DNA of 64,000 bases from a virus. Taxonomy: Duplodnaviria > Caudoviricetes. The notes under the pieces are model-generated. The model did no database searches, was not told the DNA's origin, and was given only the letters and a program-made list of their open reading frames with translations. The DNA lies in the IMG/VR virus record IMGVR_UViG_3300031519_004326, positions 8,380 through 72,379 of that record; one strand, written 5' to 3'. Each line of letters starts with the position of its first letter. Within the stretch, counting starts at the first letter, position 1. The position numbers and the translations under genes are program-made. Of the stretch, positions 4,959-63,942 are shown in pieces.

Positions 4959-4999
4959 ACCTGTAACTTTACGTAACACCCGACTGCCATAAATACAGT

Positions 5000-5777: not shown

Positions 5778-5785
5778 ATAAATTT

Positions 5786-6388: not shown

Positions 6389-6395
6389 CAAGGAC

Positions 6396-6446
6396 TTGGC
6401 GTCACCCCTTCTAACTCTGCCGCCCATACAATTATTAAAACAGGAG
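6396..6446 (+). ncRNA. candidate riboswitch-like H-type pseudoknot in the queD 5' UTR
   Basis: GGCG/CGCC stem; loop CUUCU complementary to SD AGGAG; A-rich linker; not a canonical preQ1-I match. Confidence 0.3.
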
Positions 6447-6452
6447 ATAATA

Positions 6453-6902
6453 ATGGGGAAATATTTAAGCACAAAACACTACGGACACAACATTGGTCTT
6501 TCGGCAGTATTCCGTCAACCTAATGCAGATCATTCACACTGTCATCTATTACACGGTTACAGTTTAGCATTTACATTTAAGTTTGGATGTACCGAACTAG
6601 ATCATAAAAACTGGGCTGTAGACTTTGGAGGTCTTAAACCTTTAAAGAAATGGCTAGAAGACAACTTTGATCACAAGACAGCAATTGACAAAGATGATCC
6701 GTACTTAGATAAGTTTATGGAACTACAAGAACTTGACCTAGCAGAAATTGTTGTTATGGATGGTGTCGGTGCAGAGAAGTTTGCAGAACACGCATTTAAC
6801 TTTGCAGATAAACTAGTGCGCGAAATAAGCAATAATCGTTGTTATTGCGTAAGTGCAGAATGTGCAGAACACGGAGCAAACTCAGCGATATACGAGGTGT
6901 AA
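6453..6902 (+). CDS. queD: 6-carboxy-5,6,7,8-tetrahydropterin synthase (QueD/PTPS, T-fold)
   Basis: HCHLLHGYS, VDFGGLKPLK, FDHK, GAEKFAE, EHGANSA; start chosen at ATG 6453 after AGGAG. Confidence 0.85.
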   Translation: MGKYLSTKHYGHNIGLSAVFRQPNADHSHCHLLHGYSLAFTFKFGCTELDHKNWAVDFGGLKPLKKWLEDNFDHKTAIDKDDPYLDKFMELQELDLAEIVVMDGVGAEKFAEHAFNFADKLVREISNNRCYCVSAECAEHGANSAIYEV

Positions 6903-6903
6903 G

Positions 6904-7713: not shown

Positions 7714-7714
7714 A

Positions 7715-8437: not shown

Positions 8438-8462
8438 CAAAGATACGCAAACGTGTTATACT
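8434..8462 (+). promoter_or_regulatory. sigma70-type promoter with extended -10, upstream of uvsE
   Basis: TTGACA (8434-8439), 17 nt, TATACT (8457-8462) preceded by TG. Confidence 0.75.
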
Positions 8463-8580
8463 ATATAAACAATGGTACAAGCAACTACGACAGCAAGGCT
8501 ACAAGTGGCACAACTGTATAGAATGGGCAATACACAACTCAGGCACACACGAACTAGACGGTTCCTATAGGAAGTTTTAA
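8434..8580 (+). CDS. unannotated 48-aa basic protein
   Basis: TTG start overlapping the fpr TGA; MTKIRKRVILYKQWYKQLRQQGYKWHNCIEWAIHNSGTHELDGSYRKF; stop 1 nt before uvsE ATG. Confidence 0.45.
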   Translation: MTKIRKRVILYKQWYKQLRQQGYKWHNCIEWAIHNSGTHELDGSYRKF

Positions 8581-8581
8581 T

Positions 8582-17300: not shown

Positions 17301-20300
17301 ACAGAATTTACAGATGCTGTAACTATATCTACAATTGATAGTACAGCTGATACTAGTGGCTTGCCTCTAAAAGGCGGCAATGGTGCTGTTTGGAAACTTA
17401 CATTCTCAAACCAAACTACTGATAATACTAGTGCAACAGGCGGATTACTTTATAAACTATACGGTGGTGAACGTGTTGTAGTTAGACAACGTGCTAAACT
17501 AACACTTGAAAATATTGAGTCTGTACCAATTCGTCCATCAACTGCGGTTGTGTTTGCTGAATCTTCAAAAGTTTATAGATCATTAAACTTTGACAGAGCA
17601 ACTATTAGTAACTGGAACAGTACAGCAGATGCAGAAATGCCAGCAGGATTTAATACACTAACGTTTGATAACAATTATCAATATATCCTTAGTACAGTAA
17701 GTTATGACAGATACTCTGCTAATGTACTATTAGAACTAGGTGCTGCTGTTAGTGTTACTAAGGGTGACATTATTACCCAAGGTAGTGCAAGCGGCGTTGC
17801 TACAGAAACTGTTGTAGGAACTACTACAATATATGTAGGTGGTTGGAACGGAACATCATATACAGCAGTATCGGGTGGTGACATAAGCATTGCTGGAGTT
17901 GCAGCAGCTGGATCACAACCAAGTGCAGTAACAGAATTTAGTGCATCTAGCACGTTTGGTAGCACAGCAGGTGATACACTTATTGCAATAACATCTCCAA
18001 TTACTGATCCAGACGGTTTAAACAGATTAAAAAATGCTGATATGATCTTTGGTTGGAAAGACAGAGTACACGTAATAAAAGCATATCACGATGGTGCAGG
18101 AACTGCTACAGGAGCGCCAGCAGGTAGTTCACTAGTAACAGGATTTGCATATTTAGAAATTGACTCAACTCCGTTAGTAAATAAAAATACACAATCAAGT
18201 CCAACACCTCCAGGAACAGGTATTGCTCGTCCTCTACGCTTAGGTGGTGAGATTGGTCAAGTAGTATTAAGTATTGGTACACAGAGTGGTGAGTCTGCAG
18301 AAATTACTGTTAATATTTCACTTAACAGAGCAACAGGACACGACTTTAGTAACATTGGTACTGGTGGATTTAACACAAGTAACTATCCAAACATTATCTT
18401 TGGACAGCCTGCAGAATCAAAAGCCGAAGCATACACCAACGAAGACATTGCTGAAAAATCTCAAGTTTGGGAAAAAGGCAAAGGGCGTGTGTTTGTTATG
18501 TCAACAGACGAAGACGGATTCTTTAGAGTTGGTAAGTTCTTTGAAGTTGACCAAGGTACTGGTACAGTTAAGTTTGCAGCGCAAATTAATATCTCAGGAC
18601 TAGACGGACTTGGATTTAGAGATGGTGAAACAATTAATAAATTCACTGGCGATAGCGGTATGTCACCAATTGATAATAGTACTGTTCCAACATCATATGC
18701 TGTTGAACAATACCTAGACAGGCGTTTAGGTTTTGATAGAAATATGAATGCTAAGACAGCAATATTAGGTGACGGTTTCCTACCACAAAAGAATCCACTA
18801 CTTACACAAACACTTGATGTAAATGGCAATCCTGATCATACTCTTAATATGGTTAGTGGTCGAGTTGTTCAATTAGGCGATCCAGTTCAAGACTTAGATG
18901 CTGCTAACAAACAGTATGTTGATAAGCGTGTTTTTGCTAACGATGAAATTCAAGAACTTAGAGATATCGAACTTAACAATACTAGCTTTGAAAACGAGTA
19001 TGGTAAAAACGATATGATAGTTCTTACTGGTAACAAGCGTGTTTATGTTAAACAAACAACTGGTAACCCAGATGATTGGAGAGTTGGTAATTTAGTTACA
19101 GGTGTTGCAACAGACACCGCAGCATATATTGAAGACTTAGAAGCCAAGACACTTGATAATGGGGAAGAAATTTGGATACTATCTTACAAACCATTACAAA
19201 TTACAAGTGTAACAACTAGTGGTAATAACGGCAATCTTGATGCACAAAGAGGCTATAAACTTGTACAGTTGAATAGTGGTGCAACTGGTGAGATATTATG
19301 GTCACAGGGCCAAAGTAGTACCAACGAATCAAGATCCAAAACACAAGGTAACCAGTTTAAATTAATTAATGTTACTGGCACATTTACTACAAATACAGCT
19401 GATACACTTTCTGTTTTAAACTTAGTAAATGCTGATGCAACTGAGACAGCTAGTATATATCCATTAGCTGTTACAGTTCAAGGGTTGCAAGATTTTGACA
19501 ACGAGAAAATTGAAGACACTAATGGTGCATATGGTGATACTACAGGCGGCTTTGACGGTGCTCCAGTTACTACAACATTAGAATTTGGTAACGCAAGTGA
19601 AGCAAATAGTACAGCTGATGACGGAGCTCCAGGTACTGCAACAAGAAGTGATATTAACATTGAAGTTGAAAGAGTACGAGCAACACAAAATAATACTACT
19701 GGTGACATTACTGATCCAGGAAGTGTTAAAGTTAATCTACAATTGCAGGATGAGGCAATTGTAAATACTGATGTTAATAACTCAGCAGATATTGCGCAAA
19801 GCAAATTGTTAATGAATAACGCTCCAGTACTTGCAAACTCAGACTCACTAGACGATGGAAGTACATCAGGACAACGTACAAAACAAGCAAATCAAGGTTT
19901 AGCAGCATTTGACTCAAGTGCGTTTGCTGAAGATCAAGTATGGACTTTAATTGGTACTGATGCGCAAGCATTTGTATCAGCATTATCAGTTGATGACATT
20001 ATTACACAGAACAGTGGTACTAAAGTTGCATATGTAGATGCGATTATTAACAGTTCTAATCCATATCAAATTAGAGTAAGAACTGCAAGTAGTTTTGTAA
20101 TTGGTAACGCAGGTGTAAATAGACTTACAAGAATTACTGTAAACGAAGGCGATTATACTAAAAATGCAGCAGCACAGAGCTTAACAACAGTTAGTGCAGT
20201 TTTAAATACTGGCTTTATTAATATTAAAGACAGAGGTATTACTTTTGATAAGATACAAGATTTACCAGAAAAAACTGTAATTGGTCGTGCAGACATTGAC

Positions 20301-53659: not shown

Positions 53660-56329
53660 ATGCCATACGTAGATGCGATGTTTGATCGCGATCAGGATAT
53701 TATTCGTGCCGTTGAACGCAAGGACGGAAAACGACACTTCCACGAATATCAAGCAAAATATACATTTTATTATAAAGACCCTAAGGGCAAATACAAAAGC
53801 GTTTATGGTGATCCTTTAAGTCGTATTGTGTGCAAAAACACAAAAGACTTCCGCAAAGAAGTTGCTATTAACAGAGACAAAATACTGTTTGAAAGCGACA
53901 TTAATCCTATCTTCCAATGTTTAAGTGAAAACTATCTTAACCAAGACGCACCTAAATTGAACATTGCGTTCTTCGATATTGAGACTGATTTTGATCCAGA
54001 GAGAGGCTTTGCTGATCCTAGTGATCCGTTTATGCCTATTACAAGTATCTCTGTATATCTACAGTGGTTAGACACTATGGTGTGTATTGCTGTACCTCCA
54101 AAGACACTTACTATGGAGCAAGCACGTAAAGAAGTCGAAGGCATAGACAATGTAATGCTAGTTGAAAAAGAAAGTGAAATGATTGATACTTTCTTAACGT
54201 TAATTGAAGACAGTGACGTACTAAGTGGTTGGAACAGTGAAGGTTATGATATTCCGTATACTGTAAACAGAACTGCTAGAGTACTAAGCAAAGATGACAC
54301 ACGTAGATTCTGCTTATGGGGACAACTTCCTAAGAAGCGTATGTACGAAAAGTTTGGCAAGGAAAGTCAAACATTTGATCTAGTAGGGCGTGTACACTTA
54401 GACAGTCTTAATTTATATCGCAAATACACATATGAAGAACGCCATAGTTATCGTCTAGATGCTATTGGTGAGATTGAAGTAGGTGAGAACAAAGTTGCGT
54501 ACGAAGGTACGCTAGATCAGTTATACAATCAAGACTTCCGTAAGTTTATTGAATATAACATTCAAGATACTGCATTGCTTGACAAACTAGACAAGAAGCT
54601 ACGATTTATTGACTTGTCTAATACTATTGCACACGAGAACACTGTTCTTATTCAAACTACAATGGGTGCTGTTGCTGTTACGGAGCAAGGTATTATTAAC
54701 GAAGCACATCATAGAGGCTTACAAGTTCCTAATCGCAAACAGCGTGATGAGGAAAACACACAAGCAGCCGGTGCATATGTTGCGTTTCCTAAGAAAGGTT
54801 TGCACAAATGGATTGCTTCAATGGATTTGAACTCACTGTATCCTTCAGTGATTCGTGCATTAAATATGGCTCCGGAAACTGTAATAGGACAAATACGTCC
54901 TGTGATTAGTGATGCTCGTGTACACGAAGATATGACTTTAAAGAAAAAGAGCTTTGCTGGTAGTTGGGAAGGACGTTTTAGTACAGAAGAATACGAAGCA
55001 GTTATGGAGCAAAAACGTGACGTTGCATTAAGTATTGATTGGGAAGACGGGCGTAGTGACGTTCTAAGTGGTGCTGAAATTTATCAGCTAGTGTTTGATA
55101 GTAATATGCCTTGGATGCTTAGTGCAAACGGTACAATCTTTACAACAGAGTTTGAAGGTGTTATTCCAGGTATCTTAAAGCGTTGGTATGCTGAACGTAA
55201 AGAATTACAGAAAAAACTAAAGAAAGCAAAAGACGCAGGCAATGCTGTAGAGATTGAGTATTGGGACAAGCGACAGCTAGTTAAGAAGATTTTGCTTAAC
55301 AGTTTGTATGGTGCTATTCTTAATCCAGGTTGTAGATTCTTTGACAAACGTATTGGACAGAGTACAACACTTACTGGACGTACTATTGTTAAACATATGA
55401 GTGCAGAAGTTAACAACGTTATTACAGGCACATATGATCACGTAGGTAAGTCAATGATCTACGGCGACACTGACTCTTGTTATTTTAGTGCTTGGCCAAT
55501 ACTTAAAGATGATGTTAACAGCGGAAAGCTGGAATGGTCAAAAGAAAAGTGCATTACACTTATGGATCAAGTGTGTGAACAAGCAAATACAACTTTTCCA
55601 GACTTTATGATGAAGGCATTTCATTGTCCAAAGAGCAGGTCAGATGTTATTGCGGCAGGACGTGAAATCATTGCACAGTCGGGATTGTTTATTACTAAGA
55701 AGCGTTATGCGGCTCTAGTAATTGACAACGAAGGATTTAGAACAGATATTGACGGTAAGGCTGGTAAAGTTAAAGCAATGGGCTTAGACTTGCGTAGATC
55801 AGATACGCCTGTGTTTATGCAAGAGTTTTTAAGTGAACTTTTGCTTATGGTACTTACAGATAAGCCGCAAAGTGATGTGCTTGAACGTATCACAGAGTTC
55901 CGTCAACAATTCCACGAACGGCCTGGTTATGAGAAAGGTAGTCCGAAACGTGCAAACAAAGTCGGACACTATCGACGCTTAGAAGAAAAACAAGGCAAGG
56001 CAAATATGCCGGGCCACGTAAGGGCAAGCATTAACTGGAATACACTAAAACGTATGAACGGCGACAAATATTCGCAAGAGATCGTTGACGGTATGAAAGT
56101 TATTGTTTGTAAATTAAAACAGAATCCGCTGGGATATACAAGTGTTGCATATCCTACAGATGAGATGCGTATCCCGCAGTGGTTCAAAGAACTACCGTTT
56201 GATGATGCAGCTATGGCGGAGACAATTATTGATAACAAACTAGACAACTTAATTGGTGTGCTTAACTATCCGTTACAAGATACCAAGCGACACAATACGT
56301 TTACGAGTTTGTTTGATTTCGGAGAATAA
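53660..56329 (+). CDS. family B DNA polymerase (T4 gp43-like)
   Basis: FFDIET exonuclease, MDLNSLYPS, KILLNSLYG, YGDTDS, KKRYA; no intein or intron. Confidence 0.97.
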   Translation: MPYVDAMFDRDQDIIRAVERKDGKRHFHEYQAKYTFYYKDPKGKYKSVYGDPLSRIVCKNTKDFRKEVAINRDKILFESDINPIFQCLSENYLNQDAPKLNIAFFDIETDFDPERGFADPSDPFMPITSISVYLQWLDTMVCIAVPPKTLTMEQARKEVEGIDNVMLVEKESEMIDTFLTLIEDSDVLSGWNSEGYDIPYTVNRTARVLSKDDTRRFCLWGQLPKKRMYEKFGKESQTFDLVGRVHLDSLNLYRKYTYEERHSYRLDAIGEIEVGENKVAYEGTLDQLYNQDFRKFIEYNIQDTALLDKLDKKLRFIDLSNTIAHENTVLIQTTMGAVAVTEQGIINEAHHRGLQVPNRKQRDEENTQAAGAYVAFPKKGLHKWIASMDLNSLYPSVIRALNMAPETVIGQIRPVISDARVHEDMTLKKKSFAGSWEGRFSTEEYEAVMEQKRDVALSIDWEDGRSDVLSGAEIYQLVFDSNMPWMLSANGTIFTTEFEGVIPGILKRWYAERKELQKKLKKAKDAGNAVEIEYWDKRQLVKKILLNSLYGAILNPGCRFFDKRIGQSTTLTGRTIVKHMSAEVNNVITGTYDHVGKSMIYGDTDSCYFSAWPILKDDVNSGKLEWSKEKCITLMDQVCEQANTTFPDFMMKAFHCPKSRSDVIAAGREIIAQSGLFITKKRYAALVIDNEGFRTDIDGKAGKVKAMGLDLRRSDTPVFMQEFLSELLLMVLTDKPQSDVLERITEFRQQFHERPGYEKGSPKRANKVGHYRRLEEKQGKANMPGHVRASINWNTLKRMNGDKYSQEIVDGMKVIVCKLKQNPLGYTSVAYPTDEMRIPQWFKELPFDDAAMAETIIDNKLDNLIGVLNYPLQDTKRHNTFTSLFDFGE

Positions 56330-56442: not shown

Positions 56443-56856
56443 ATGAAAGTAGGATTTACTTGTTCAACATTTGACTTATGTCACGCAGGACACGTACAAA
56501 TGTTACGTGAAGCAAAAGACCAGTGCGATTATTTGATATGTGGATTACAAGTAGATCCTAGTAATGATCGTCCAGAAAAAAACGCACCTATTCAAACTAT
56601 TGTCGAGCGTTATACGCAACTTAAAGCAATTAGTTATGTAGATGAAATCATTCCATACGGCACAGAGCAAGACCTAGAAGATATCTTGACAATGTACAAT
56701 ATTGATGTTAGAGTATTAGGAGAAGAGTATCGCGACAAAGACTTTACAGGTAAAGATATCTGTAGGCGCCGTGATATTGAATTATACTTTAACAAAAGAG
56801 ATCATAGATTTAGTTCAAGTGATTTACGTAAACGAGTAACAGAGAGAGAAAATTAA
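56443..56856 (+). CDS. tagD: TagD-like (glycerol-3-phosphate) cytidylyltransferase
   Basis: FTCSTFDLCHAGH, ER, YVDEI, GEEY, RDHRFSSSDLR. Confidence 0.85.
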   Translation: MKVGFTCSTFDLCHAGHVQMLREAKDQCDYLICGLQVDPSNDRPEKNAPIQTIVERYTQLKAISYVDEIIPYGTEQDLEDILTMYNIDVRVLGEEYRDKDFTGKDICRRRDIELYFNKRDHRFSSSDLRKRVTEREN

Positions 56857-57017
56857 TGTGGTTCCTATTAATCCTTAGTATGACCCAAGGTGAATTAAAG
56901 TACACAGCAGTTGATTCTTATGATACTGTAGAAGAATGTCATTTGGCATTATTCGATACGTATTTTGAAGATTATCAAGAAGCAATCTGTCTTAAGAGTT
57001 ATCATAATGATGAATAA
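56856..57017 (+). CDS. unannotated 53-aa protein
   Basis: TAATG coupling; MWFLLILSMTQG...EECHLAL...AICLKSYHNDE. Confidence 0.6.
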   Translation: MWFLLILSMTQGELKYTAVDSYDTVEECHLALFDTYFEDYQEAICLKSYHNDE

Positions 57018-57711
57018 ATTTATATTTGATGTAGACGGTACACTAACACCTAGTCGTGGTATTATTGATCTAGAGTTTAAAGCGTTCTTTAATAGTTTCT
57101 GTTTAATGAATGATGTATACTTAGTTACTGGTAGTGATAAACCTAAAACAGTAGAACAGATTAGTGAAGGAACTTATAACTTATGTAAACGTGTTTACAA
57201 CTGTTCAGGTGGTGATGTTTATGAAGGCGAACAGAACATAAGATCAAGTGATTGGAAATTGCCTGACCTGGCAAGAACATTTTTAATTAGTTGCGAGTAT
57301 GAAAGTTTGTTTGATCTACGCACAGGAAATCATATCGAAGAACGTTCTGGACTAGTAAATTTTAGTGTTGTAGGTCGTAATGCTAATGCCGAAGAACGTG
57401 CAAAGTATGTAGAATACGATTCATTTGAAGAAGAACGAAATATAATAGCAAACTCGTTTAATATAATGTTTCCTGAATTACAAGCAACTGTAGGCGGGGA
57501 TACCGGCATTGATATTGCTCCTCGTGGATTAGATAAAAGTCAAATATTAAAAGACTTTAAAGATAACGACACAATACACTTTTACGGTGATGCAATGTTC
57601 GAAGGAGGCAATGATAAACCGTTAGCAGATGCACTAAAGAAGTACCAACTAGGTTTTTCACATCAAGTTAATAACTGGAAAGACACTTGGCAACTTCTAA
57701 AAGAATTATGA
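57007..57711 (+). CDS. eukaryote-type (HAD-IIB, PMM2-like) phosphomannomutase
   Basis: FDVDGTLTPSR, IEERSGLVNFSVVGRNA, GGDTGIDI, DKS, FYGDAMFEGGND. Confidence 0.85.
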   Translation: MMNKFIFDVDGTLTPSRGIIDLEFKAFFNSFCLMNDVYLVTGSDKPKTVEQISEGTYNLCKRVYNCSGGDVYEGEQNIRSSDWKLPDLARTFLISCEYESLFDLRTGNHIEERSGLVNFSVVGRNANAEERAKYVEYDSFEEERNIIANSFNIMFPELQATVGGDTGIDIAPRGLDKSQILKDFKDNDTIHFYGDAMFEGGNDKPLADALKKYQLGFSHQVNNWKDTWQLLKEL

Positions 57712-57746
57712 TTCAAAAGAAAAACCTAAATACCCTTATAAAATGC

Positions 57747-57775
57747 TTGACAACAAACAAATTAGGCAGTATAAT
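57747..57775 (+). promoter_or_regulatory. sigma70-type promoter for the clamp-dpdA operon
   Basis: TTGACA (57747-57752), 17 nt, TATAAT (57770-57775). Confidence 0.87.
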
Positions 57776-57799
57776 TTAACTAACAATGGAGAAAAATAA

Positions 57800-58528
57800 A
57801 TGAAAGATATCTTACAAGACGTAGTTGCACATACACACGCACTAGGCTTTTTAGCAATAGTTAAAATTAGTAACGACGAAGGCACACAAATTGACTCAAT
57901 GGCTGAAGACCGTAGTGTTATTTTAAGTGCATCAACACACAATAAAGTAAATGAATTTGTAGGCACATTTGGTATGCCTAACTTAGACAAGTTAGCATTA
58001 CATTTGAAAAACCCTGAATACAAAACAGATGCTAAAATTGATGTTATACAGGCAGAACGCAACGGCGAAACTATTCCAACACACATTCACTTTGAAAACG
58101 CAGCAGGTGACTTTGAAAATGATTATCGCTTTATGAACAAAGCAATTATCGAAGAGAAGTTAAAAACTGTTAAGTTTAAAGGTGCAACGTGGGAAGTTGA
58201 AGTTGATCCATCGCAGGCATCAATTGCACGTATGAAACTTATGAGTGCAGCACATTCCGAAGAACCTACATTTAACGTAAAGACTCGAGATGGTAACTTA
58301 GTGTTTAGTTTCGGTGATGCAAGTACACACGCAGGCGAATTTGTATTCCAACACGGTATTGAAGGTAAGTTACAACACACTTGGAGTTGGCCTGTAGCAC
58401 AAGTACAAGCAATTCTAAACTTAGACGGTGACGTTACTATGAGTATTAGTGATCAAGGTGCAATGAAAATTGCCGTAGACAGTGGTATGGTTAAGTACGA
58501 CTATATCTTGCCAGCGCAGAGCAAGTAA
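57800..58528 (+). CDS. sliding clamp (gp45/PCNA-like)
   Basis: 242 aa two-domain alternating beta/alpha pattern; C-terminal YDYILPAQ; polB and clamp loader in the same window. Confidence 0.7.
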   Translation: MKDILQDVVAHTHALGFLAIVKISNDEGTQIDSMAEDRSVILSASTHNKVNEFVGTFGMPNLDKLALHLKNPEYKTDAKIDVIQAERNGETIPTHIHFENAAGDFENDYRFMNKAIIEEKLKTVKFKGATWEVEVDPSQASIARMKLMSAAHSEEPTFNVKTRDGNLVFSFGDASTHAGEFVFQHGIEGKLQHTWSWPVAQVQAILNLDGDVTMSISDQGAMKIAVDSGMVKYDYILPAQSK

Positions 58529-58530
58529 CT

Positions 58531-60156
58531 ATGAACAAAGACCTAACAACAGCGCAACAAGATTACGCACATTTCTTACCTGCACTTAGTGGCTTCTATG
58601 CAACTTATGTGGGCAAGCAACGCTATCCTGATCCTGTCGACGGTCCTTACGTTCCTGACAACCGTATTCCAAGTAACTTTCAAAACAATGTCGAAAGTTT
58701 AAACTATCTTAATGCACAAGAAGGGGCATTCACATATAAGTGGTGCCTTTATAGTGCAGGACACGCTGACTTAGATACAACTAAAATTGTACCTAAAGAA
58801 GATATGGTTCGGAATAGAGATAGAGAAAATACTTGGTTGCTAGGCGACAGCGGAGGCTTCCAGATTGGTAAGGGTGTTTGGGAAGGTGATTGGAAAGATC
58901 CTAATTGTCCTAAAGCACAAAAGAAACGTGACGGAGTGTTACGTTGGATGGATGCATATATGGACTACGGAATGATACTTGATATTCCGGCGTGGGTTGC
59001 ACGTTCACCAGCAGGTGCCAAGGCAACTGGTATAAGTACGTATCAAGAAGCAGTAGTAGCAACACGTATTAACAACGACTATTGGATGAAACATAGAACA
59101 GGTGCTTGTAAGTTATTAAACGTATTGCAGGGTGAGAATCACGCAGACGCAGATGACTGGTATGAGCAAATGAAAGACTATTGTGATCCAGTTAAGTATC
59201 CTGACAAACACTTTAATGGTTGGTCAATGGGTGGGCAGAATATGTGCGATGTACACTTAGTACTCAAACGTATTGTTGCATTGCACTATGACGGGCTATT
59301 ACAAAGCGGTATACACGATGTAATGCACTTCTTAGGCACAAGTAAACTAGAGTGGGCTTGCTTGCTAACAGACGTACAGCGGGCTATACGCAAGTACTAT
59401 AACCCCACTATGATGCTTACATTTGATTGTGCAAGTCCGTTCTTAGCTACTGCTAATGGACAAGTATACACGTCAGTTGAAACACCGGATAGAGGTAAGT
59501 GGACATATCGAATGGTTCCTAGTGTAGACGAACTAAAGTATGCATCTGATACACGTACATTTAAAGATGCAACACTACAAGACGGAATCTTTAAAACCTT
59601 CGAAGACTCGCCATTAAGTGACGGACTATTAGTTAATGACATTTGTACATATAAAAAGGGTGATCGTAATAAAATTGGAACACCTAAAGTAAGTGCAGGC
59701 GAAGTTGAACTAGATAAAAATGATGATCCTGTGCTTGACGAAAACAAACAACCAATTGTACGTAAGAAAGATTCAACAAGTTGGGATAGTTTTAGTTATG
59801 CTATTCAAATGGGTCATAACGTATGGACACACATTAATGCTGTACAAGAAGCAAATAGACAGTACGATGCCGGTGTTATACCTAAGATGCTTGTACAAGA
59901 GCAGTTTGATAGAGTAATGTTTAGAGATGTTGTAGAAGAAATATTTTCAAAGACAACACGAGAAGAGTCATTAGAAACTATTGAAAAGTATACAAAGTTC
60001 TGGATGGCTATTCCGGGTACTAGAGGTGCTATTGGTAAAAAGACTGTAAACAGTTCAACATTCTTTGATGCACTATTTGATGTCGAAGCTCCAACTGTAA
60101 TTGAAGACGAGCTAGATGAAACTAAGTTAGAGGAACTCGAGGATGAGCAACTATGA
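58531..60156 (+). CDS. dpdA: TGT/DpdA-family 7-deazaguanine transglycosylase
   Basis: LGDSGGFQ, MILDIP, VLQG, GWSMGG, MHFLG, TFDCASP, GHN; no CxCxxC zinc site of tRNA TGT. Confidence 0.8.
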   Translation: MNKDLTTAQQDYAHFLPALSGFYATYVGKQRYPDPVDGPYVPDNRIPSNFQNNVESLNYLNAQEGAFTYKWCLYSAGHADLDTTKIVPKEDMVRNRDRENTWLLGDSGGFQIGKGVWEGDWKDPNCPKAQKKRDGVLRWMDAYMDYGMILDIPAWVARSPAGAKATGISTYQEAVVATRINNDYWMKHRTGACKLLNVLQGENHADADDWYEQMKDYCDPVKYPDKHFNGWSMGGQNMCDVHLVLKRIVALHYDGLLQSGIHDVMHFLGTSKLEWACLLTDVQRAIRKYYNPTMMLTFDCASPFLATANGQVYTSVETPDRGKWTYRMVPSVDELKYASDTRTFKDATLQDGIFKTFEDSPLSDGLLVNDICTYKKGDRNKIGTPKVSAGEVELDKNDDPVLDENKQPIVRKKDSTSWDSFSYAIQMGHNVWTHINAVQEANRQYDAGVIPKMLVQEQFDRVMFRDVVEEIFSKTTREESLETIEKYTKFWMAIPGTRGAIGKKTVNSSTFFDALFDVEAPTVIEDELDETKLEELEDEQL

Positions 60157-60352
60157 TGAAGTCGAAGCTAAACTTCGCGCACACTACGACGAACTAAAAC
60201 GGAAACACAGAGAGCTTGACGAAGAGCTTGAAACCAAGTATAATAATATGACAGTTACCGAAGAAGTTCGTAGAATGAAAACTATGAAACTTTATCTTAA
60301 AGATGAAATGCATCGTATTAATGCATATTTGATACAAAAAGGCTTAGAATGA
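60143..60352 (+). CDS. DUF465/YdcH-like coiled-coil protein
   Basis: HRELDEEL...MKTMKLYLKDEM. Confidence 0.7.
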   Translation: MSNYDEVEAKLRAHYDELKRKHRELDEELETKYNNMTVTEEVRRMKTMKLYLKDEMHRINAYLIQKGLE

Positions 60353-60870
60353 AAAGAGATTACGATACAGGCACATCAGACAGTATTACATTCTTTACAG
60401 GTGTAGAAGTTGAAAAGACTCCTGCATATGGTATGAAGACGCTGTTTGTTACTGGTCATCAAGACTACAACGAAATTATGAAGTACTATAAGGAAGAAAA
60501 ATGTGAACATATCTTCTTTGGTGCTAATCATAGTTATGCTCCTGTTACATCAGATAATTTTGAAGACTGGGATCTAATGATTCGTGCGTTTACAGATCAA
60601 GGTATTATGTGTAGCTTAGATATTCCAAGTACAATTAATTTGGAATGGTTCTTAGACGGAGGTCTAGTTGAAAGTGATAACTTTATTCCTCAACTACGTG
60701 TTGTAGTTCCATATGTTAAACAATGGGGATACAATGCAATGATTAAAATTGACGATAAAGATTTTAAAGCATCTAATCCAGGCGTTTGGTGTCATAGCTT
60801 ACACGATTTAATGGATAGAGAAAAATTTACCGATTGGGGCAAATATGGCCTTGACAAAGTCCTAAAGTGA
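60349..60870 (+). CDS. hypothetical alpha/beta protein in the dpdA cluster
   Basis: GVEVEKTPAYG, HIFFGANHS, NPGVWCH; coupled to the dpdA operon. Confidence 0.75.
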   Translation: MKRDYDTGTSDSITFFTGVEVEKTPAYGMKTLFVTGHQDYNEIMKYYKEEKCEHIFFGANHSYAPVTSDNFEDWDLMIRAFTDQGIMCSLDIPSTINLEWFLDGGLVESDNFIPQLRVVVPYVKQWGYNAMIKIDDKDFKASNPGVWCHSLHDLMDREKFTDWGKYGLDKVLK

Positions 60871-60879
60871 AAGTATACT
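60851..60879 (+). promoter_or_regulatory. sigma70-type promoter for the QueD-like/GT operon
   Basis: TTGACA (60851-60856), 17 nt, TATACT (60874-60879). Confidence 0.82.
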
Positions 60880-60885
60880 AGTAAT

Positions 60886-61323
60886 ATGCAAGAACGCTAT
60901 CATAACTATATGTTACGCAGAATGAAGGAAGACAGAATGACACAAGAAGCAAGCAGAAGTGTATGGGTAACCTTTCGTAAAGAAGGTGTTCATATGTACC
61001 CAGGTGCAGACACTGACCCAAAATTAGCAACAGGCGAGTGGGATGATGTATCATTCCTAGGTATTCCGCATCGTCATATTTTCCACTTTAAAGTTCGCAT
61101 CGAAGTATTTCACAACGATCGCGATATTGAGTTTATTCAGTTTAAACGCTGGATGGAACGGTTGTATGCGCAGGATGTAATACAACTGAATCACAAGAGC
61201 TGCGAAATGATTGCAGATGACTTGTATGAAGAAATCACTACAAAGTACCCCGGCCGCTTTGTAGAAATTGATGTCGCTGAAGATGGCGAAAATGGCTGTT
61301 CAATTTATTATCCTAAATGCTAA
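60886..61323 (+). CDS. QueD-like T-fold protein (second, divergent)
   Basis: PHRHIFHFKV, DIEFIQFKR, SCEMIA, VAEDGENG; lacks the CxxxHGH of canonical QueD. Confidence 0.7.
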   Translation: MQERYHNYMLRRMKEDRMTQEASRSVWVTFRKEGVHMYPGADTDPKLATGEWDDVSFLGIPHRHIFHFKVRIEVFHNDRDIEFIQFKRWMERLYAQDVIQLNHKSCEMIADDLYEEITTKYPGRFVEIDVAEDGENGCSIYYPKC

Positions 61324-61339
61324 AAGAGAGTAAACTACA

Positions 61340-61546
61340 ATGGCAAATAACTTCCCTCCTGTCAATAAGATTTTTGACGATTTGGATAAGTTCCGCGACT
61401 ACTGTCGCTTCGAAGGTAAACCGTTTAATGAAAAGGATCTTTATAAAAGAGATGCGTGGGTGTGGCAAGCCTATGGAAAGTACCAAAACTACCTTCGTGC
61501 AAAGGCTCGCAATGGCGGGCGTGATTTTCAACAACGGAGAACCTAA
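61340..61546 (+). CDS. hypothetical protein
   Basis: FRDYCRFEG...FNEKDLY; coupled to the GT. Confidence 0.7.
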   Translation: MANNFPPVNKIFDDLDKFRDYCRFEGKPFNEKDLYKRDAWVWQAYGKYQNYLRAKARNGGRDFQQRRT

Positions 61547-62602
61547 ATGACTATCTTCATCGTAGATATTGAAGCAGTAGATACACGTTACACTAAACAG
61601 TGGAAGGAGTATTTACCTAAACAACTGCAACGAGCTACGAGTGAAGATGTTGTTGTTATTAGTGGTGGCGAAACTCCTCAGGCAACTACGCCTGGGGCGT
61701 TTTTAAACTTTGGTGGTACAAACGTTTACAAGAGTAAACAACTAGAAACTATCGGTGAGATGTTCTGCAAAGGACAAGTAACCGATGGGGACTATTTCTT
61801 ATACACAGATGCTTGGAACCCTACTGTTATACAATTGAAGTATATGGCAGAACTTCTAGGTGTTGACATTAATATTGGCGGCTTATGGCACGCCGGTAGT
61901 TATGATCCACAAGACTTCTTAGGAAGACTTATAGGTGATAAACCTTGGGTACGTCACGCTGAAATGTCAATGTATGAATGTTATGATGATAACTTTTATG
62001 CTACTAACTATCATATTGACTTGTTTACAGATACTATGATGGACAATTATAATGTTGATATGGACAAAGCAATTAAAGTTGGCTGGCCTATGGAGTACCT
62101 AAAAGATAGTTTAATTAGCTACAAAGGTATGGAGAAGCGAGACTTGATCTTGTTTCCACACCGTGTTGCTCCTGAGAAGCAAGTTGAAATCTTTAGAGAC
62201 TTAGCACAGCGGTTGCCGCAATATGAGTTTGTTGTTTGTCAAGAACAAGAACTTACAAAGAACGAATATCACAACTTGCTAGGTGAAGCTAAGATGGTGT
62301 TTAGTGCTAACTTGCAAGAAACACTTGGTATTAGCTGGTATGAAGGAGCATTAGTTGATGCTATTCCTATGATGCCTAATAGACTAAGCTATAGTGAAAT
62401 GGCACTACCTGAGTTTTTATATCCAAGTGAATGGACTGAAAACTACGATACATACTTGCATCACAGAGACAAAGTAGTTGCACAAATTGTAAACTATATG
62501 GAAAACTTTGATGATTTACAAGTGTCTTTGGAAAAGCAACGCACAAAACTAAACAAAGAGTTTTTTAGTGGAGCAGCATTATATGACACAATCAAAAGAT
62601 AA
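61547..62602 (+). CDS. GT-B (GT4-like) glycosyltransferase resembling GTDC1/QTMAN
   Basis: ILFPHRVAPEKQ, QETLGISWYEG (ExxG..E), PNRLSYSEM..PEFLY. Confidence 0.8.
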   Translation: MTIFIVDIEAVDTRYTKQWKEYLPKQLQRATSEDVVVISGGETPQATTPGAFLNFGGTNVYKSKQLETIGEMFCKGQVTDGDYFLYTDAWNPTVIQLKYMAELLGVDINIGGLWHAGSYDPQDFLGRLIGDKPWVRHAEMSMYECYDDNFYATNYHIDLFTDTMMDNYNVDMDKAIKVGWPMEYLKDSLISYKGMEKRDLILFPHRVAPEKQVEIFRDLAQRLPQYEFVVCQEQELTKNEYHNLLGEAKMVFSANLQETLGISWYEGALVDAIPMMPNRLSYSEMALPEFLYPSEWTENYDTYLHHRDKVVAQIVNYMENFDDLQVSLEKQRTKLNKEFFSGAALYDTIKR

Positions 62603-63044
62603 CATCCTTTCTACCTTAATGGACAAACTTGGTAGACGTCGAGTAATTACAGAGCGCGACAGTAACGTGCCGTATCTTGTACGTTACTATTTGTTTTTAA
62701 AAGAACGAAAGAACTTTCCGTTTAATCTTACTTTACACAAAGTATTAGTAAGTGACGAGCCTACACTACACGATCATCCGTGGAGTTATGCTACATTTAT
62801 TATTGCAGGCGGCTACTATGAAAACACTCCTAAAGGGCGGTTTTGGAGAGGCCCAGGACACTTCCGTTATCGTAGTGCTAACGACTTACATTTCTTAGAA
62901 CTTGATAAAGATTCAAATGGAAATGAGATACCTTGTTGGAGTTTATTCTTTATGGGTAAAAAGGCAGGAGCCTGGGGCTTCTTAAAAAATGGTGTTTGGA
63001 TACACAACAAAAATTATTTGGCGAGAGGAGCAAAAGACGAATGA
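62583..63044 (+). CDS. cupin-fold metalloprotein
   Basis: LHDHPW, GGYYE, distal LHFLEL His. Confidence 0.75.
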   Translation: MTQSKDNILSTLMDKLGRRRVITERDSNVPYLVRYYLFLKERKNFPFNLTLHKVLVSDEPTLHDHPWSYATFIIAGGYYENTPKGRFWRGPGHFRYRSANDLHFLELDKDSNGNEIPCWSLFFMGKKAGAWGFLKNGVWIHNKNYLARGAKDE

Positions 63045-63379
63045 GTAGTGACACTATTACTTTGGATTATAATGTAAATCCGTATACTATTTCTACTGTT
63101 GATTCCGGCTATGTTACTACATCAAGTATAACTGGACTTAATAGTAATATATGGACTGATGATGTTTCTGCCAAACCTTCGATCAAGTGTGATGGCACTC
63201 TTGAAGTACAAGGTAGAGATGTTCTAGCAGAACTTGACGAAATGCGTGATGCACTAATGTTAATCAAGCGTGACGTAGATATGGAAGCTAAGTATCCTAA
63301 GCTAAAAGAACTAAAAGACGAGTATGCAAAGCAACTTGCAAAGTATGCTACATTTGACACAATTAAGGAATCAAAATGA
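63041..63379 (+). CDS. hypothetical protein
   Basis: ATG after GAGGAG; C-terminal EAKYPKLKELKDEY. Confidence 0.7.
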   Translation: MSSDTITLDYNVNPYTISTVDSGYVTTSSITGLNSNIWTDDVSAKPSIKCDGTLEVQGRDVLAELDEMRDALMLIKRDVDMEAKYPKLKELKDEYAKQLAKYATFDTIKESK

Positions 63380-63942
63380 TTAAAAAACATTATTATAGCT
63401 GGACTGATATTGAACGTATGTGTGTAAGCATTGTTAATCAAATGTACGCTGACAACTGGCGTCCTGATTACATTGTAGGTGTTACACGCGGTGGCAATGT
63501 ACCCGCTACTATTATTAGTAATATGACTGGCATTCGTTGCGAAGCACTTAAAGTAAGTTTGCGTGACGATGACATAGGCCCTGAAAGTAACTTGTGGATG
63601 AGCGAAGATGCATTTGGATATGTGAACGAAGACGAACGAGACGTAGCTGGATGTCGTTGGGACAATACAAAGCGAAAGAAAATCCTTATTGTAGACGATA
63701 TTAACGACACTGGTGCTACATTTAATTGGATCAAAGAAGACTGGCCAAAAAGTTGTTTGCCAATGGAACACGAGGGATGGAATACTGTTTGGAATGATGA
63801 AATTGCAAATGTAAGATTTGCTACACTAACTGAAAATTTATCTAGTAACTTTGACGGTGTAAGGTATACTTGTCACGAAGTTAACAAAGCAGAAGAAGAC
63901 ATTTGGTTAGTTTACCCTTGGGAGAATGTAAGTGAGTATTAA
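63376..63942 (+). CDS. type I purine phosphoribosyltransferase (Gpt/XGPRT-like)
   Basis: IVGVTRGG, ILIVDDINDTGAT PRPP loop, WLVYPWE. Confidence 0.88.
   Translation: MIKKHYYSWTDIERMCVSIVNQMYADNWRPDYIVGVTRGGNVPATIISNMTGIRCEALKVSLRDDDIGPESNLWMSEDAFGYVNEDERDVAGCRWDNTKRKKILIVDDINDTGATFNWIKEDWPKSCLPMEHEGWNTVWNDEIANVRFATLTENLSSNFDGVRYTCHEVNKAEEDIWLVYPWENVSEY

What the first reader, a model, noticed from the sequence alone, without database searches (positions are those of the whole stretch)
56443..63942. Candidate glycosylated (mannosyl-) 7-deazaguanine nucleic-acid modification pathway
Seen: a contiguous + strand cluster of cytidylyltransferase, eukaryote-type phosphomannomutase, sliding clamp, TGT/DpdA transglycosylase, unknown protein, QueD-like T-fold protein, GT-B glycosyltransferase, cupin and purine PRTase; canonical queD lies at 6453. 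Established: phage DpdA plus Que enzymes insert 7-deazaguanine bases into DNA, and in animal tRNA queuosine is mannosylated by QTMAN (GTDC1) using GDP-mannose. Inference: the cluster makes a deazaguanine base, inserts it, then glycosylates it, with PMM and the nucleotidyltransferase feeding NDP-sugar, the cupin or T-fold protein creating an acceptor group, and the PRTase salvaging released guanine. I know of no described sugar-modified deazaguanine in DNA. The substrate could instead be tRNA.
Basis: partly seen in the sequence, partly recalled or inferred. Interest (0 to 1): 0.92.

Follow-up and report, generated by a model that had tools for sequence, protein, structure and literature searches.

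The report
Sugar transferase inside phage deazaguanine genes
A fragment of an uncultured giant phage carries the known genes for swapping guanine in its DNA for 7-deazaguanine, and a genuine sugar-transferring enzyme travels with them in many unrelated phages and prophages, which predicts a sugar-bearing purine in DNA that I found in no paper and that nobody has measured.

Summary
Confirmed here:
- cytidylyltransferase-like enzyme, phosphomannomutase-like enzyme and purine-type PRTase (Pfam);
- a 541-aa TGT-superfamily, DpdA-like enzyme;
- a 145-aa DpdL, the published QueD paralogue with motif LxxxHRHxF;
- a 351-aa GT4-like GT-B glycosyltransferase (AlphaFold pLDDT 96; Z 25-26 to SPS, BshA, MshA);
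- QueD at 6396-6902.

'Sliding clamp' and 'cupin' stay unproven.

A 99%-identical contig runs past the contig end and adds HIT, FolE and QueE. A complete 357-kb relative has no QueC. So this is the QueC-less DpdA/DpdL (phiST-type, dDG) pathway.

New to the literature I could search: the glycosyltransferase sits beside DpdA and DpdL in 92 of 93 informative metagenomic loci. It does so too in PA5oct-like phages, ACP17, X1, BCSR5 and BUCT-ZZ01 (two transferases), beside DpdL in Phosso, and in prophage-like elements of alphaproteobacteria.

Not supported: the mannose/QTMAN reading. The NTase and PMM genes are specific to this lineage; other lineages carry other sugar-tailoring genes.

The acceptor atom is unknown and no chemistry was tested. 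PA5oct DNA has a modified G of unknown identity.

This scan has noted the same module in over 300 other genomes, with the same reading.

The parts
6396..6902 (+). QueD (CPH4 synthase), canonical
   Evidence: PF01242 PTPS 5.3e-13
53660..56329 (+). Family B DNA polymerase (context). C-terminus ends ...TFTSLFDFGE.
   Evidence: PF00136 4.2e-37 and PF03104 1.8e-19; C-terminus
56443..56856 (+). Cytidylyltransferase-like nucleotidyltransferase (TagD / RfaE-domain-II-like); lineage-specific accessory gene
   Evidence: PF01467 7.3e-15; TIGR01518 5.8e-19 and TIGR02199 4e-18, both below their equivalog cut-offs. Found in 69/80 close loci and 0/80 sister-set loci.
56965..57711 (+). Phosphomannomutase-like HAD-IIB enzyme (likely true start near 57007); lineage-specific accessory gene
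   Evidence: PF03332 5e-23; DVDGT motif; 56/80 versus 0/80 loci
57747..57775 (+). Sigma-70-type promoter-like site, 12 of 12 consensus positions, just upstream of the clamp-like gene
   Evidence: The total count of such sites in the region is not above chance.
57800..58528 (+). Putative sliding clamp
   Evidence: 37% and 31% identical to genes annotated PCNA (PAC2) and beta clamp (Phosso), in the same position after the polymerase. No Pfam or PDB profile hit.
58531..60156 (+). DpdA-like DNA guanine transglycosylase of the TGT superfamily, a long subfamily (about 510-590 aa). It carries an FFDALFD motif like the polymerase tail, followed by an acidic tail.
   Evidence: Invariant DSGGFQ, D151, H266.LG and FDCASP; hhalign 91.2%, E 1e-6 to the ACP17/X1/BUCT-ZZ01/nt-1 DpdA alignment; Atlas 0.93 and 0.89; a homologue in Vibrio phage 2.275.O sits beside QueF, QueC and FolE; C-terminal motif
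60143..60352 (+). Small DUF465 protein; accessory
   Evidence: PF04325 6.3e-8; found only in the close lineage, 75/80 loci
60349..60870 (+). p173: conserved protein of unknown fold and function that travels with DpdA, DpdL and the GT
   Evidence: Present in 48/48 and 43/45 informative loci. Homologue just upstream of dpdA in ACP17. AF2 pLDDT 91.6 with no clear fold match: best Z 6.8.
60851..60879 (+). Promoter-like site (11 of 12) just upstream of dpdL
60886..61323 (+). DpdL, a QueD paralogue and predicted CDG decarboxylase
   Evidence: FLGIPHRHIF fits LxxxHRHxF; tblastn to phiST gp040 2e-9; phrog_17812 2.5e-32
61340..61546 (+). p68: small basic protein (pI 9.7) conserved between dpdL and the GT
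   Evidence: Found in 67/80 and 51/80 loci, always between DpdL and the GT
61547..62602 (+). GT4-like GT-B glycosyltransferase, expected to be retaining
   Evidence: AF2 pLDDT 96, pTM 0.93. Foldseek top hits are glycogen synthase, BshA and MshA, about 1e-10. VIA Z 26.3 (6kih), 25.5 (BshA), 25.0 (MshA). E258 is near-invariant and E266 invariant (E-x7-E); R206 and K211 are near-invariant. The family profile hits GT 8xsg at 4e-5.
62583..63044 (+). Cupin-like protein with an HDHPW motif; accessory and unproven
   Evidence: Weak PDB profile hits to Cupin_2, E 0.3-0.7. Present in 33/48 and 24/45 informative loci.
63041..63379 (+). Unknown 112-aa protein; accessory
63376..63942 (+). Type I purine phosphoribosyltransferase, xanthine/guanine PRTase-like
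   Evidence: PF00156 2.8e-9; NF006613 2.4e-12. It recurs in PA5oct-like phages and BUCT-ZZ01 clusters.

Best explanation
The locus is the replication-linked DNA-modification module of an uncultured jumbo phage.

Proposed pathway:
1. FolE, QueD and QueE make 7-carboxy-7-deazaguanine (CDG). FolE and QueE lie just past the contig end.
2. There is no QueC, so the pathway does not go on to preQ0.
3. DpdL is predicted to turn CDG into 7-deazaguanine.
4. The DpdA-like transglycosylase swaps guanine in DNA for the deazaguanine base. It probably works at the replication fork, because it carries the polymerase's clamp-binding-like motif.
5. The GT4-like glycosyltransferase then adds a sugar from a nucleotide-sugar, either to that base in DNA or to the free base before insertion.
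6. In this lineage the donor may be supplied or tailored by the NTase and the PMM-like enzyme. Other lineages use an SDR, a dehydrogenase or a deacetylase.
7. The PRTase recycles released guanine or phosphoribosylates the deazapurine.

Shown here: gene identities and conserved linkage. Inferred: every chemical step, the acceptor atom and the sugar.
For: Pathway:
- QueD is in the window.
- FolE (PF01227, 5.8e-38) and a radical-SAM QueE-like gene follow the PRTase in the 99%-identical contig L002.
- QueC is absent from the 100%-complete relative G001 and from PAC2.

DpdL and DpdA:
- DpdL motif and homology.
- DpdA-like identity.

Glycosyltransferase fold and motifs.

Linkage:
- 48/48 and 44/45 loci with at least 4 kb downstream of the DpdA-like gene hold both DpdL and the GT.
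- The GT abuts or overlaps dpdA and/or dpdL in PAC2/PA5oct, ACP17, X1, BCSR5 and BUCT-ZZ01, which has two GTs. In Phosso it abuts dpdL only; the DpdA-like gene lies about 170 kb away. ACP17, X1 and BUCT-ZZ01 use a different DpdA family (BCSR5's 446-aa neighbour was not classified).
- Prophage-like elements of isolate Alphaproteobacteria hold a DpdA-like gene directly upstream of the GT. DpdL lies between them in two of six, and no FolE, QueD or QueE is nearby.

Other points:
- ACP17 and X1 have no ThyA-type hydroxymethylase, so the GT is not a hydroxymethyl-pyrimidine enzyme there.
- Sugar-nucleotide genes recur inside the module at different positions.
- Virion DNA of PA5oct, whose TGT-like and GT genes are 32% and 44% identical to these, resists five G-containing restriction enzymes. 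The chemistry is undetermined (PMC12191111).
- ACP17 dpdL plus dpdA expressed in E. coli without the intervening GT gave no dDG (PMC10516641).
Against: - No chemistry was tested.
- 7-Deazaguanine has no obvious hydroxyl acceptor, and DpdL as decarboxylase is only predicted. The acceptor is therefore unexplained.
- phiST makes plain dDG with DpdL and no GT. Five DpdL lineages have no GT within 7 kb.
- The GT shows no specific likeness to known DNA glucosyltransferases or to QTMAN.
- Its nearest structural relatives, BshA and MshA, glycosylate small molecules.
- The GT is acidic (pI 4.75), though so is the DpdA-like enzyme.
- A more distant GT clade (PhiXhv-15) sits in a non-deazaguanine context.
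Confidence: 0.55

Rival explanations
1. The module makes plain 2'-deoxy-7-deazaguanosine (or dCDG) in DNA, as in phiST. The glycosyltransferase serves another purpose, such as glycosylating a small-molecule by-product, a protein or a host envelope component.
For: - phiST reaches dDG with FolE, QueD, QueE, DpdL and DpdA3 and no GT.
- DG offers no obvious acceptor.
- The closest folds, BshA and MshA, act on small molecules.
- NTase and PMM resemble envelope-sugar genes and are shared with Vibrio phages at 73-75% nucleotide identity.
Against: - The GT is translationally coupled to dpdA or dpdL in at least seven lineages and in minimal prophage cassettes where nothing else explains it.
- 92 of 93 informative loci keep it.
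- ACP17 dpdA plus dpdL without the GT gave no dDG.
Confidence: 0.2
2. The sugar is added to the free base or a nucleotide before incorporation. In one version DpdA inserts an already glycosylated base. In another the PRTase makes a deazapurine nucleotide that the phage polymerase incorporates.
For: - A purine PRTase recurs in these clusters (PA5oct-like, BUCT-ZZ01, the marine lineages).
- PRTases build deazapurine nucleotides in toyocamycin and tubercidin pathways (my own knowledge).
- The GT's nearest folds act on small acceptors.
- Eukaryotic TGT accepts bulky 7-substituents (my own knowledge).
Against: - The PRTase is absent from many loci: 19/45 in the sister set. It is also absent from the fetched ACP17 and X1 regions and from the prophage cassettes.
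- DpdA is nearly universal, and published phage 7-deazaguanines are inserted after replication (PMC10516641).
Confidence: 0.15
3. One reading: a QTMAN-like mannosyltransferase puts mannose, fed by PMM and the nucleotidyltransferase, on a deazaguanine whose acceptor group is made by the cupin or the T-fold protein.
For: - PMM-family and nucleotidyltransferase genes lie 4 kb upstream in the same strand run.
Against: - NTase and PMM are absent from all 80 sister-set loci and from the fetched PAC2, ACP17 and X1 regions.
- The nucleotidyltransferase is of the cytidylyl/adenylyl class (TagD / RfaE-II-like), not a GDP-mannose pyrophosphorylase.
- X1 and BCSR5 carry LmbE/PIG-L-type deacetylase candidates, which points to HexNAc there.
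- The GT has no Pfam hit, not even to the GTDC1 N-terminal domain family.
- The T-fold protein is DpdL.
- The cupin is dispensable.
Confidence: 0.08
4. The transglycosylase and the GT act on tRNA rather than DNA.
For: TGT enzymes are classically tRNA enzymes.
Against: - The genes sit between polymerase/clamp and FEN/helicase genes.
- DpdA proteins share the polymerase's C-terminal clamp-binding-like motif.
- The enzyme is homologous to the phage DNA-acting DpdA family.
- PA5oct virion DNA is G-modified.
- No QueA, QueG or QueC genes were seen.
Confidence: 0.02

Closest known systems
phiST-type dDG system: FolE, QueD, QueE, DpdL and DpdA3 of Cellulophaga phage phiST (Hutinet, Cui et al., NAR 2023, PMC10516641)
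   Same: - QueC-less CDG pathway.
- A DpdL with the LxxxHRHxF motif, homologous at 33% identity.
- A TGT-superfamily transglycosylase.
- Position next to the replication genes.
   Different: - The transglycosylase here is about 540 aa and is not clearly DpdA3: hhalign to phiST gp042 gives only 21%. It is nearer the nt-1/ACP17 DpdA family at 91%.
- phiST has no GT4 enzyme, no p173, no p68 and no PRTase.
PA5oct-like Wroclawvirus phages (Arenbergviridae) of Pseudomonas aeruginosa
   Same: - Same order: polymerase, clamp, DpdA-like (32% identity), GT (44%), DpdL (53%), PRTase, QueE.
- Virion DNA carries a modified G (PMC12191111).
   Different: - No NTase or PMM in the fetched PAC2 region.
- A short SDR lies in the cluster.
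- The p173 homologue lies elsewhere in the genome.
- The chemical identity of the modification is unpublished in the papers I could search.
T-even phage DNA glucosyltransferases (alpha- and beta-GT acting on 5-hydroxymethylcytosine)
   Same: GT-B fold enzymes encoded by phages that would decorate a non-canonical base in DNA using a nucleotide-sugar.
   Different: - The acceptor would be a purine analogue, not hydroxymethylcytosine.
- ACP17 and X1 have no ThyA-type hydroxymethylase.
- The T4 enzymes are not among the top 50 structural matches.
BshA/MshA with BshB/MshB (GT4 GlcNAc transferase plus LmbE-type deacetylase)
   Same: - Best structural matches, Z about 25.
- BCSR5 has a PIG-L/LmbE-like gene two genes from the GT. 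X1 has unannotated ORFs at the same position.
   Different: - Those enzymes act on malate or inositol phosphate in thiol biosynthesis.
- No such context exists here, and the window's own lineage has no deacetylase.
QTMAN/GTDC1, the queuosine mannosyltransferase of animal tRNA
   Same: The concept only: a glycosyltransferase decorating a 7-deazaguanine derivative in a nucleic acid.
   Different: - The substrate there is the cyclopentenediol of queuosine in tRNA.
- No queuine-forming genes are present here.
- No sequence-family link was found.
- A direct comparison with GTDC1 was not possible.

Membership tests
TGT superfamily / DpdA-like DNA transglycosylase | Catalytic aspartate in the D-S-G-G-(F/L)-Q motif | tested here: met
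   DSGGFQ at residues 106-111 is invariant in 9 diverse homologues and aligns with DSGGLQ of the DpdA family.
TGT superfamily / DpdA-like DNA transglycosylase | Second catalytic (nucleophile) aspartate in the (F/Y)D(C/S)xxP-type motif, plus the substrate-binding Asp and the QG and GG motifs | tested here: met
   D299 (FDCASP), D151, G201 and G230/G235 are invariant. They align with SYDS, FDEIP and QG of the DpdA family.
TGT superfamily / DpdA-like DNA transglycosylase | Match to the curated family models (Pfam PF01702 TGT) | tested here: not met
   No Pfam hit at E up to 10, and PF01702 finds nothing in the genome. Support comes only from profile-profile comparison (91%) and Atlas features (0.93 and 0.89). 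I therefore file it as a divergent DpdA-like subfamily, not as a member of the curated family.
TGT superfamily / DpdA-like DNA transglycosylase | TIM-barrel fold | not tested
   Both structure-prediction slots went to the GT and p173.
DpdA3 subfamily (phiST, Campylobacter phages) | Detectable homology to phiST CGPG_00065 (gp042) | tested here: inconclusive
   hhalign 21%, E 0.001. The family HMM does not hit it.
DpdL (proposed CDG decarboxylase) | Signature LxxxHRHxF in place of QueD's CxxxHGH | tested here: met
   L58-G-I-P-H62-R-H64-I-F66. L58, H62, H64 and F66 are invariant in 31 homologues. The motif definition comes from PMC10516641.
DpdL (proposed CDG decarboxylase) | Homology to phiST DpdL, and a genome with FolE, QueD, QueE and DpdA but no QueC | tested here: met
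   tblastn 2e-9 to phiST gp040. FolE and QueE are in L002, QueD is in the window, and QueC is absent from complete relative G001.
DpdL (proposed CDG decarboxylase) | T-fold / QueD-like structure, and decarboxylase activity | tested here: inconclusive
   hhalign to a 4-sequence QueD alignment gives only 24%, and there is no Pfam hit. The activity has never been shown experimentally, even for phiST.
GT-B fold, GT4-like retaining glycosyltransferases | Two-Rossmann-domain GT-B fold | tested here: met
   AF2 pLDDT 96. VIA Z 26.3 (3.2 A over 318 residues), 25.5 and 25.0 to SPS, BshA and MshA, covering residues 1-351.
GT-B fold, GT4-like retaining glycosyltransferases | C-terminal E-x7-E motif and basic residues that bind the donor phosphates | tested here: met
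   E258 is near-invariant and E266 invariant; R206 and K211 (FPHR..PEK) are near-invariant in 67 homologues. That these residues play the donor-binding role is inferred by analogy.
GT-B fold, GT4-like retaining glycosyltransferases | Match to Pfam Glycos_transf_1 (PF00534) | tested here: inconclusive
   The window's protein has no hit. Its X1 homologue scores 45.5 bits against a cut-off of 26.4, and ACP17 and PAC2 score below the cut-off. The family profile hits PDB GT 8xsg at 4e-5.
QTMAN / GTDC1 | GTDC1-type N-terminal domain and specific sequence similarity | tested here: inconclusive
   No Pfam family matches at E up to 10. No QTMAN entry appears among the top 50 structural matches. No GTDC1 sequence was available for a direct comparison.
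T4-type DNA glucosyltransferases | Closest structural similarity to alpha- or beta-GT | tested here: inconclusive
   Neither is among the top 50 Foldseek or VIA rows. That does not exclude a relationship.
Eukaryote-type phosphomannomutase (HAD-IIB) | Pfam PF03332 above its cut-off, and the DxDxT motif | tested here: met
   82.5 bits against a cut-off of 22.4; FDVDGTLT. Substrate specificity was not tested.
Cytidylyltransferase-like nucleotidyltransferases | Pfam PF01467 above its cut-off, and the HxGH motif | tested here: met
   55.8 bits against a cut-off of 21; CHAGH. Scores fall below the equivalog cut-offs for TagD and RfaE-II, so the substrate is unknown.
Type I phosphoribosyltransferases | Pfam PF00156 above its cut-off | tested here: met
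   36.9 bits against a cut-off of 26.3. The nearest family is xanthine PRTase, below its cut-off.
Sliding clamp (PCNA / gp45-like) | Clamp fold or a profile match | tested here: inconclusive
   No Pfam hit, an unknown-function PHROG only, and no PDB profile hit. The only support is homology to genes annotated as clamps, plus position.
Cupin | Cupin barrel with metal-binding His and Glu motifs | tested here: inconclusive
   H68, H70 and E85 are invariant. PDB profile hits to Cupin_2 reach only E 0.3-0.7.

The most novel reading that the evidence does not exclude
These phages, including the culturable PA5oct, ACP17, X1, BCSR5, Phosso and BUCT-ZZ01, carry in their virion DNA a 7-deazaguanine that bears a sugar. 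As far as I could find, that would be the first glycosylated purine analogue described in any DNA. The sugar would vary by lineage (hexose, hexuronate or deoxyhexose types, HexNAc/HexN, perhaps a disaccharide where two transferases are present). The base would be installed at the replication fork by a clamp-tethered DpdA working with DpdL, the GT and the unknown p173.
Probability: 0.5. Interest if true: 0.9.

Novelty: new variant of a known kind. Interest (0 to 1): 0.8.

Why it matters
- Every DNA glycosylation I know of is on hydroxymethyl-pyrimidines, and the eight natural 7-deazaguanine DNA bases listed by Hutinet et al. 2023 carry no sugar. A sugar on a 7-deazapurine would be a new class of DNA hypermodification.
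- The module is very abundant. More than 7,000 DpdA-like and at least 8,000 GT homologues scored in the metagenome protein collection. It spans at least seven cultured phage lineages plus prophage-like elements.
- It would explain why PA5oct DNA resists restriction and is sensed by END nucleases.
- It would explain why ACP17 dpdA plus dpdL alone gave no product in E. coli.
- It could supply new enzymes for sequence-independent labelling of guanine positions in DNA.
- It can be tested at once in phages already in culture.

Tried and rejected
Searches that found nothing:
- Pfam, NCBIfam and PHROGs gave nothing informative for the DpdA-like protein, p173, the GT, the cupin-like protein, p112 or p68.
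- PDB sequence and profile searches found nothing for the DpdA-like protein, DpdL or the clamp-like protein. They found only weak cupin hits.
- p173 has no fold match in the PDB: Foldseek best E 0.027, VIA best Z 6.8. In BFVD it matches only its ACP17 homologue. The Atlas gave only glycoside-hydrolase-like leads below 0.9.
- hhalign of DpdL against QueD reached only 24%.
- hhalign of the DpdA-like family against phiST DpdA3 reached only 21%.
- The 201-aa ORF of the Methylobacterium element is not a p173 homologue.
- The Phosso 'glycosylase' is not similar to p173 by BLAST.
- QueC, FolE, radical-SAM and TGT Pfam models found nothing in the 72-kb contig itself. FolE and QueE were then found beyond its end in L002.

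Tools or calls that failed:
- A single-protein scan of viral contigs with the PAC2 protein found nothing.
- A 13-sequence GT alignment was too divergent for a pattern scan.
GT-centred neighbourhoods of distant representatives were therefore checked through the phage records and the genome-contig scan instead.
- The MMBR 2024 review on 7-deazaguanines is not held.

Readings rejected:
- Hydroxymethyl-pyrimidine glycosylation: ACP17 and X1 have no ThyA-family gene.
- tRNA as target.
- A QTMAN-specific relationship.

Full report
**What the DNA is.** The window is the last 64 kb of a 72,379-nt IMG/VR virus contig that CheckV rates about 20% complete, so it is a fragment of a jumbo phage. The contig ends at window position 64000, 58 nt after the PRTase gene. 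Composition is even, about 37% G+C, with a strong + strand coding bias.

**Observation.** From the clamp-like gene to the PRTase, neighbouring genes lie between -20 and +16 nt apart. A 12/12 sigma-70 consensus site sits before the clamp-like gene, and an 11/12 site sits before the QueD paralogue.
- Pfam confirms the cytidylyltransferase-like enzyme, the PMM-family enzyme, a DUF465 protein and the PRTase. It also confirms the family B polymerase upstream and QueD at 6396-6902.
- The 541-, 173-, 145-, 351-, 158- and 112-aa proteins have no Pfam hit.

**The transglycosylase.**
- The 541-aa protein has invariant DSGGFQ, LD.P, QG, GG, H.LG and FDCASP motifs across homologues down to 29% identity.
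- A profile of it aligns with a profile of the phage DpdA family of ACP17, X1, BUCT-ZZ01 and nt-1 at 91% probability, E 1e-6, motif on motif.
- The protein Atlas places it next to viral TGT-like clusters (0.93) and the DpdA Pfam family (0.89).
- A homologue in Vibrio phage 2.275.O sits beside QueF, a YhhQ-like transporter, QueC, an amidotransferase and FolE.
- It is not detectably DpdA3: 21% to phiST gp042. It reaches no curated model. I call it a divergent, long DpdA-like subfamily.

**The QueD paralogue is DpdL.** Its sequence FLGIPHRHIF fits the LxxxHRHxF signature that Hutinet, Cui et al. give for DpdL, the proposed CDG decarboxylase of QueC-less phages (PMC10516641). It matches phiST gp040, which is that paper's CGPG_00067 by position next to MazG, at 2e-9. 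The motif is invariant in 31 homologues.

**The rest of the pathway.**
- A contig whose DpdA-like gene is 99% identical (L002) extends 6 kb further. After the PRTase it carries a HIT protein, FolE (5.8e-38), a radical-SAM QueE-like gene and a 5'-3' exonuclease.
- PA5oct-like phages have the same order.
- QueC is absent from a 100%-complete 357-kb relative and from PAC2.
- The pathway therefore ends at CDG or at 7-deazaguanine.

**The glycosyltransferase.**
- A search of 1.84 billion representatives gave 1,179 related clusters.
- With 67 of them, AlphaFold gave pLDDT 96 and pTM 0.93.
- Foldseek and VIA-align put it squarely among retaining GT4 / GT-B enzymes: sucrose-phosphate synthase Z 26.3, BshA 25.5, MshA 25.0, with PimA and PglA further down the Foldseek and VIA lists. 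The matches run over the full length.
- E258 is near-invariant and E266 invariant (E-x7-E). R206 and K211 are near-invariant.
- The X1 homologue passes Pfam Glycos_transf_1.
- Nothing links it specifically to QTMAN or to T4 glucosyltransferases.

**Linkage, the main result.** I surveyed 160 IMG/VR loci centred on the DpdA-like gene: 80 close to the window, and 80 that are 40-52% identical to the PA5oct-type protein.
- Every locus of the first set with at least 4 kb downstream (48/48) holds p173, DpdL and the GT.
- In the second set, 44/45 hold DpdL and the GT, and 43/45 hold p173.
- The usual order is polymerase, clamp, DpdA-like, p173, DpdL, p68, GT, FolE, cupin, PRTase, HIT, QueE.

In cultured phages the GT abuts or overlaps dpdA and/or dpdL in these lineages:
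- PA5oct-like phages;
- ACP17: p173, DpdA, GT, DpdL, QueE;
- X1: GT, DpdA, DpdL, QueE;
- BCSR5;
- cyanophage BUCT-ZZ01, where two GT4-like genes flank DpdA and DpdL.

In Phosso the GT abuts DpdL next to polymerase, clamp and FolE, but the DpdA-like gene lies about 170 kb away. ACP17, X1 and BUCT-ZZ01 use the other DpdA family, so the GT tracks the DpdA/DpdL function, not one protein lineage.

A scan of species-representative genomes found the GT in isolate Alphaproteobacteria: Ochrobactrum, Pelagibacterium, Devosia, Aurantimonas, Methylobacterium and a Rhizobiales isolate.
- In each it lies directly downstream of a DpdA-like gene. In two of them DpdL lies between.
- No FolE, QueD or QueE lies within 8 kb.
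- The Methylobacterium element has a serine recombinase, a VapE-like protein and a phage endonuclease I, so it is an integrated mobile element.

The minimal unit is therefore DpdA-like, usually DpdL, and the GT.

**Limits of the linkage.** DpdL occurs without a GT within 7 kb in phiST-like phages (whose DNA is plain dDG), RHph_I1_18, Ahp1, Bakedbeans and D479. A more distant GT clade in PhiXhv-15 sits with GlmS and a BshB-like deacetylase, not with deazaguanine genes.

**Sugar supply.**
- The NTase and PMM genes occupy a slot between polymerase and clamp that is filled only in the window's lineage: 69/80 and 56/80 loci, against 0/80 in the sister set. The median gap there is 2.3 kb against 66 nt.
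- In relatives the same slot also holds an SDR epimerase/dehydratase (63/80) and sometimes a UDP-sugar-dehydrogenase-like gene.
- In the sister set a dehydrogenase-like gene follows the GT in six loci.
- PAC2 has a short SDR.
- BCSR5 has a PIG-L/LmbE-like gene, and X1 has unannotated ORFs at the same position.
- G001 adds a 2OG oxygenase.

Recurrent but varied sugar-nucleotide genes inside the module support a real sugar transfer. They argue against mannose as a general answer.

**DNA or tRNA.** Three lines point to DNA.
- The genes lie in the replication block.
- The polymerases end in SLFDF-, SLFGW-, DLFTF- or LDDLFE-type tails, and the co-encoded DpdA proteins carry the matching motif. Examples: FFDALFD here, FNSLFD in PAC2, and LDELFE in ACP17 against the polymerase's LDDLFE. 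From memory this resembles the clamp-binding tail of T4-family polymerases.
[quoted passage not shown] Its chemistry was not determined (PMC12191111).

**Mechanism and its weak point.** Gene identity and linkage are shown; chemistry is inferred. If DpdL gives 7-deazaguanine, no hydroxyl is left for a sugar. Four possibilities remain:
1. C- or N-glycosylation of the electron-rich deazapurine.
2. A different DpdL product in the GT-bearing lineages.
3. Action on CDG or on a precursor.
4. A role for p173, which has no recognisable fold.

ACP17 dpdA plus dpdL in E. coli gave no dDG when the intervening GT was left out. That fits an obligatory third partner but does not prove one.

**Literature.** Searches for deazaguanine together with glycosyltransferase or glycosylated, and for DpdA3 or PA5oct, found no report of a sugar-bearing deazaguanine in DNA.

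**Earlier notes of this scan.** They show the same module in more than 300 genomes, with follow-up agents reaching the same reading. I reached mine before reading them. Their mention of bacterial islands prompted the genome scan, which confirmed that point.

**Verdict.** This is a well-supported new variant of the known DpdA/DpdL system. The predicted glycosylated product is plausible, about even odds, and directly testable.

Noticed in passing
window 56290-56329 and 60040-60156; L083, L086, L001, L084: DpdA proteins carry the same short C-terminal motif as the co-encoded DNA polymerase. Here the polymerase ends TFTSLFDFGE and DpdA has TFFDALFDVE. In ACP17 the pair is SLDDLFE and TLDELFE; X1 DpdA ends SLEELFG; PAC2 has HFDSLFGW and SFNSLFDVD. 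This suggests that both bind the sliding clamp.
   Followed up: partly
L169 (Synechococcus phage BUCT-ZZ01) 3665-7822: Two GT4-like glycosyltransferases flank dpdA and dpdL, with QueE, an XGPRT, QueD and FolE upstream. A disaccharide or two alternative sugars may be made.
   Followed up: partly
L173 (BCSR5) 4242-8092; L086 (X1) 2843-5612: Between dpdL or FolE and the GT lie an AAA_28 protein, a PAPS-reductase-like (adenine-nucleotide alpha-hydrolase) protein and a PIG-L/LmbE-type deacetylase candidate. This echoes the BshA/BshB logic and a QueC-like ligase.
   Followed up: partly
L172 (Xanthomonas phage PhiXhv-15) 4669-7903: A distant member of the GT family sits with GlmS and a BshB-like deacetylase. 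No deazaguanine genes are nearby. This may be a different glycosylation system in about 228-kb Xanthomonas/Erwinia phages.
   Followed up: no
L185-L192 (isolate Alphaproteobacteria), about 5500-9100 in each locus: Integrated elements carry a DpdA-like gene, sometimes DpdL, and the GT, without FolE, QueD or QueE. In Methylobacterium the neighbours are a serine recombinase, a VapE-like protein and a phage endonuclease I.
   Followed up: partly
L039 (complete 357-kb relative) 41-1129, 7758-9261, 16268-16864: A protein with a pterin-4a-carbinolamine dehydratase domain lies upstream of the polymerase. A UDP-sugar-dehydrogenase-like gene and an SDR lie in the polymerase-clamp slot. A 2OG-Fe(II) oxygenase lies between the PRTase and HIT genes.
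   Followed up: partly
L175 (Vibrio phage Bakedbeans) 6215-7366: DpdL is the C-terminal part of a 383-aa ORF, so it appears fused to an unknown N-terminal domain.
   Followed up: no
window 7715-8437 and 8582-9718: A ferredoxin-NADP-reductase-like protein (FAD_binding_6 / NAD_binding_1) and a UvdE UV-endonuclease (3.2e-40) lie shortly after QueD.
   Followed up: no
window 11343-23036: A single 3,897-aa ORF on the + strand; not examined.
   Followed up: no
window 56443-56856: The nucleotidyltransferase gene is 73-75% identical at the DNA level to genes of about 190-kb Vibrio phages (Va1, phiKT1024, pv27). This is far more than the rest of the cluster, which suggests recent exchange.
   Followed up: no
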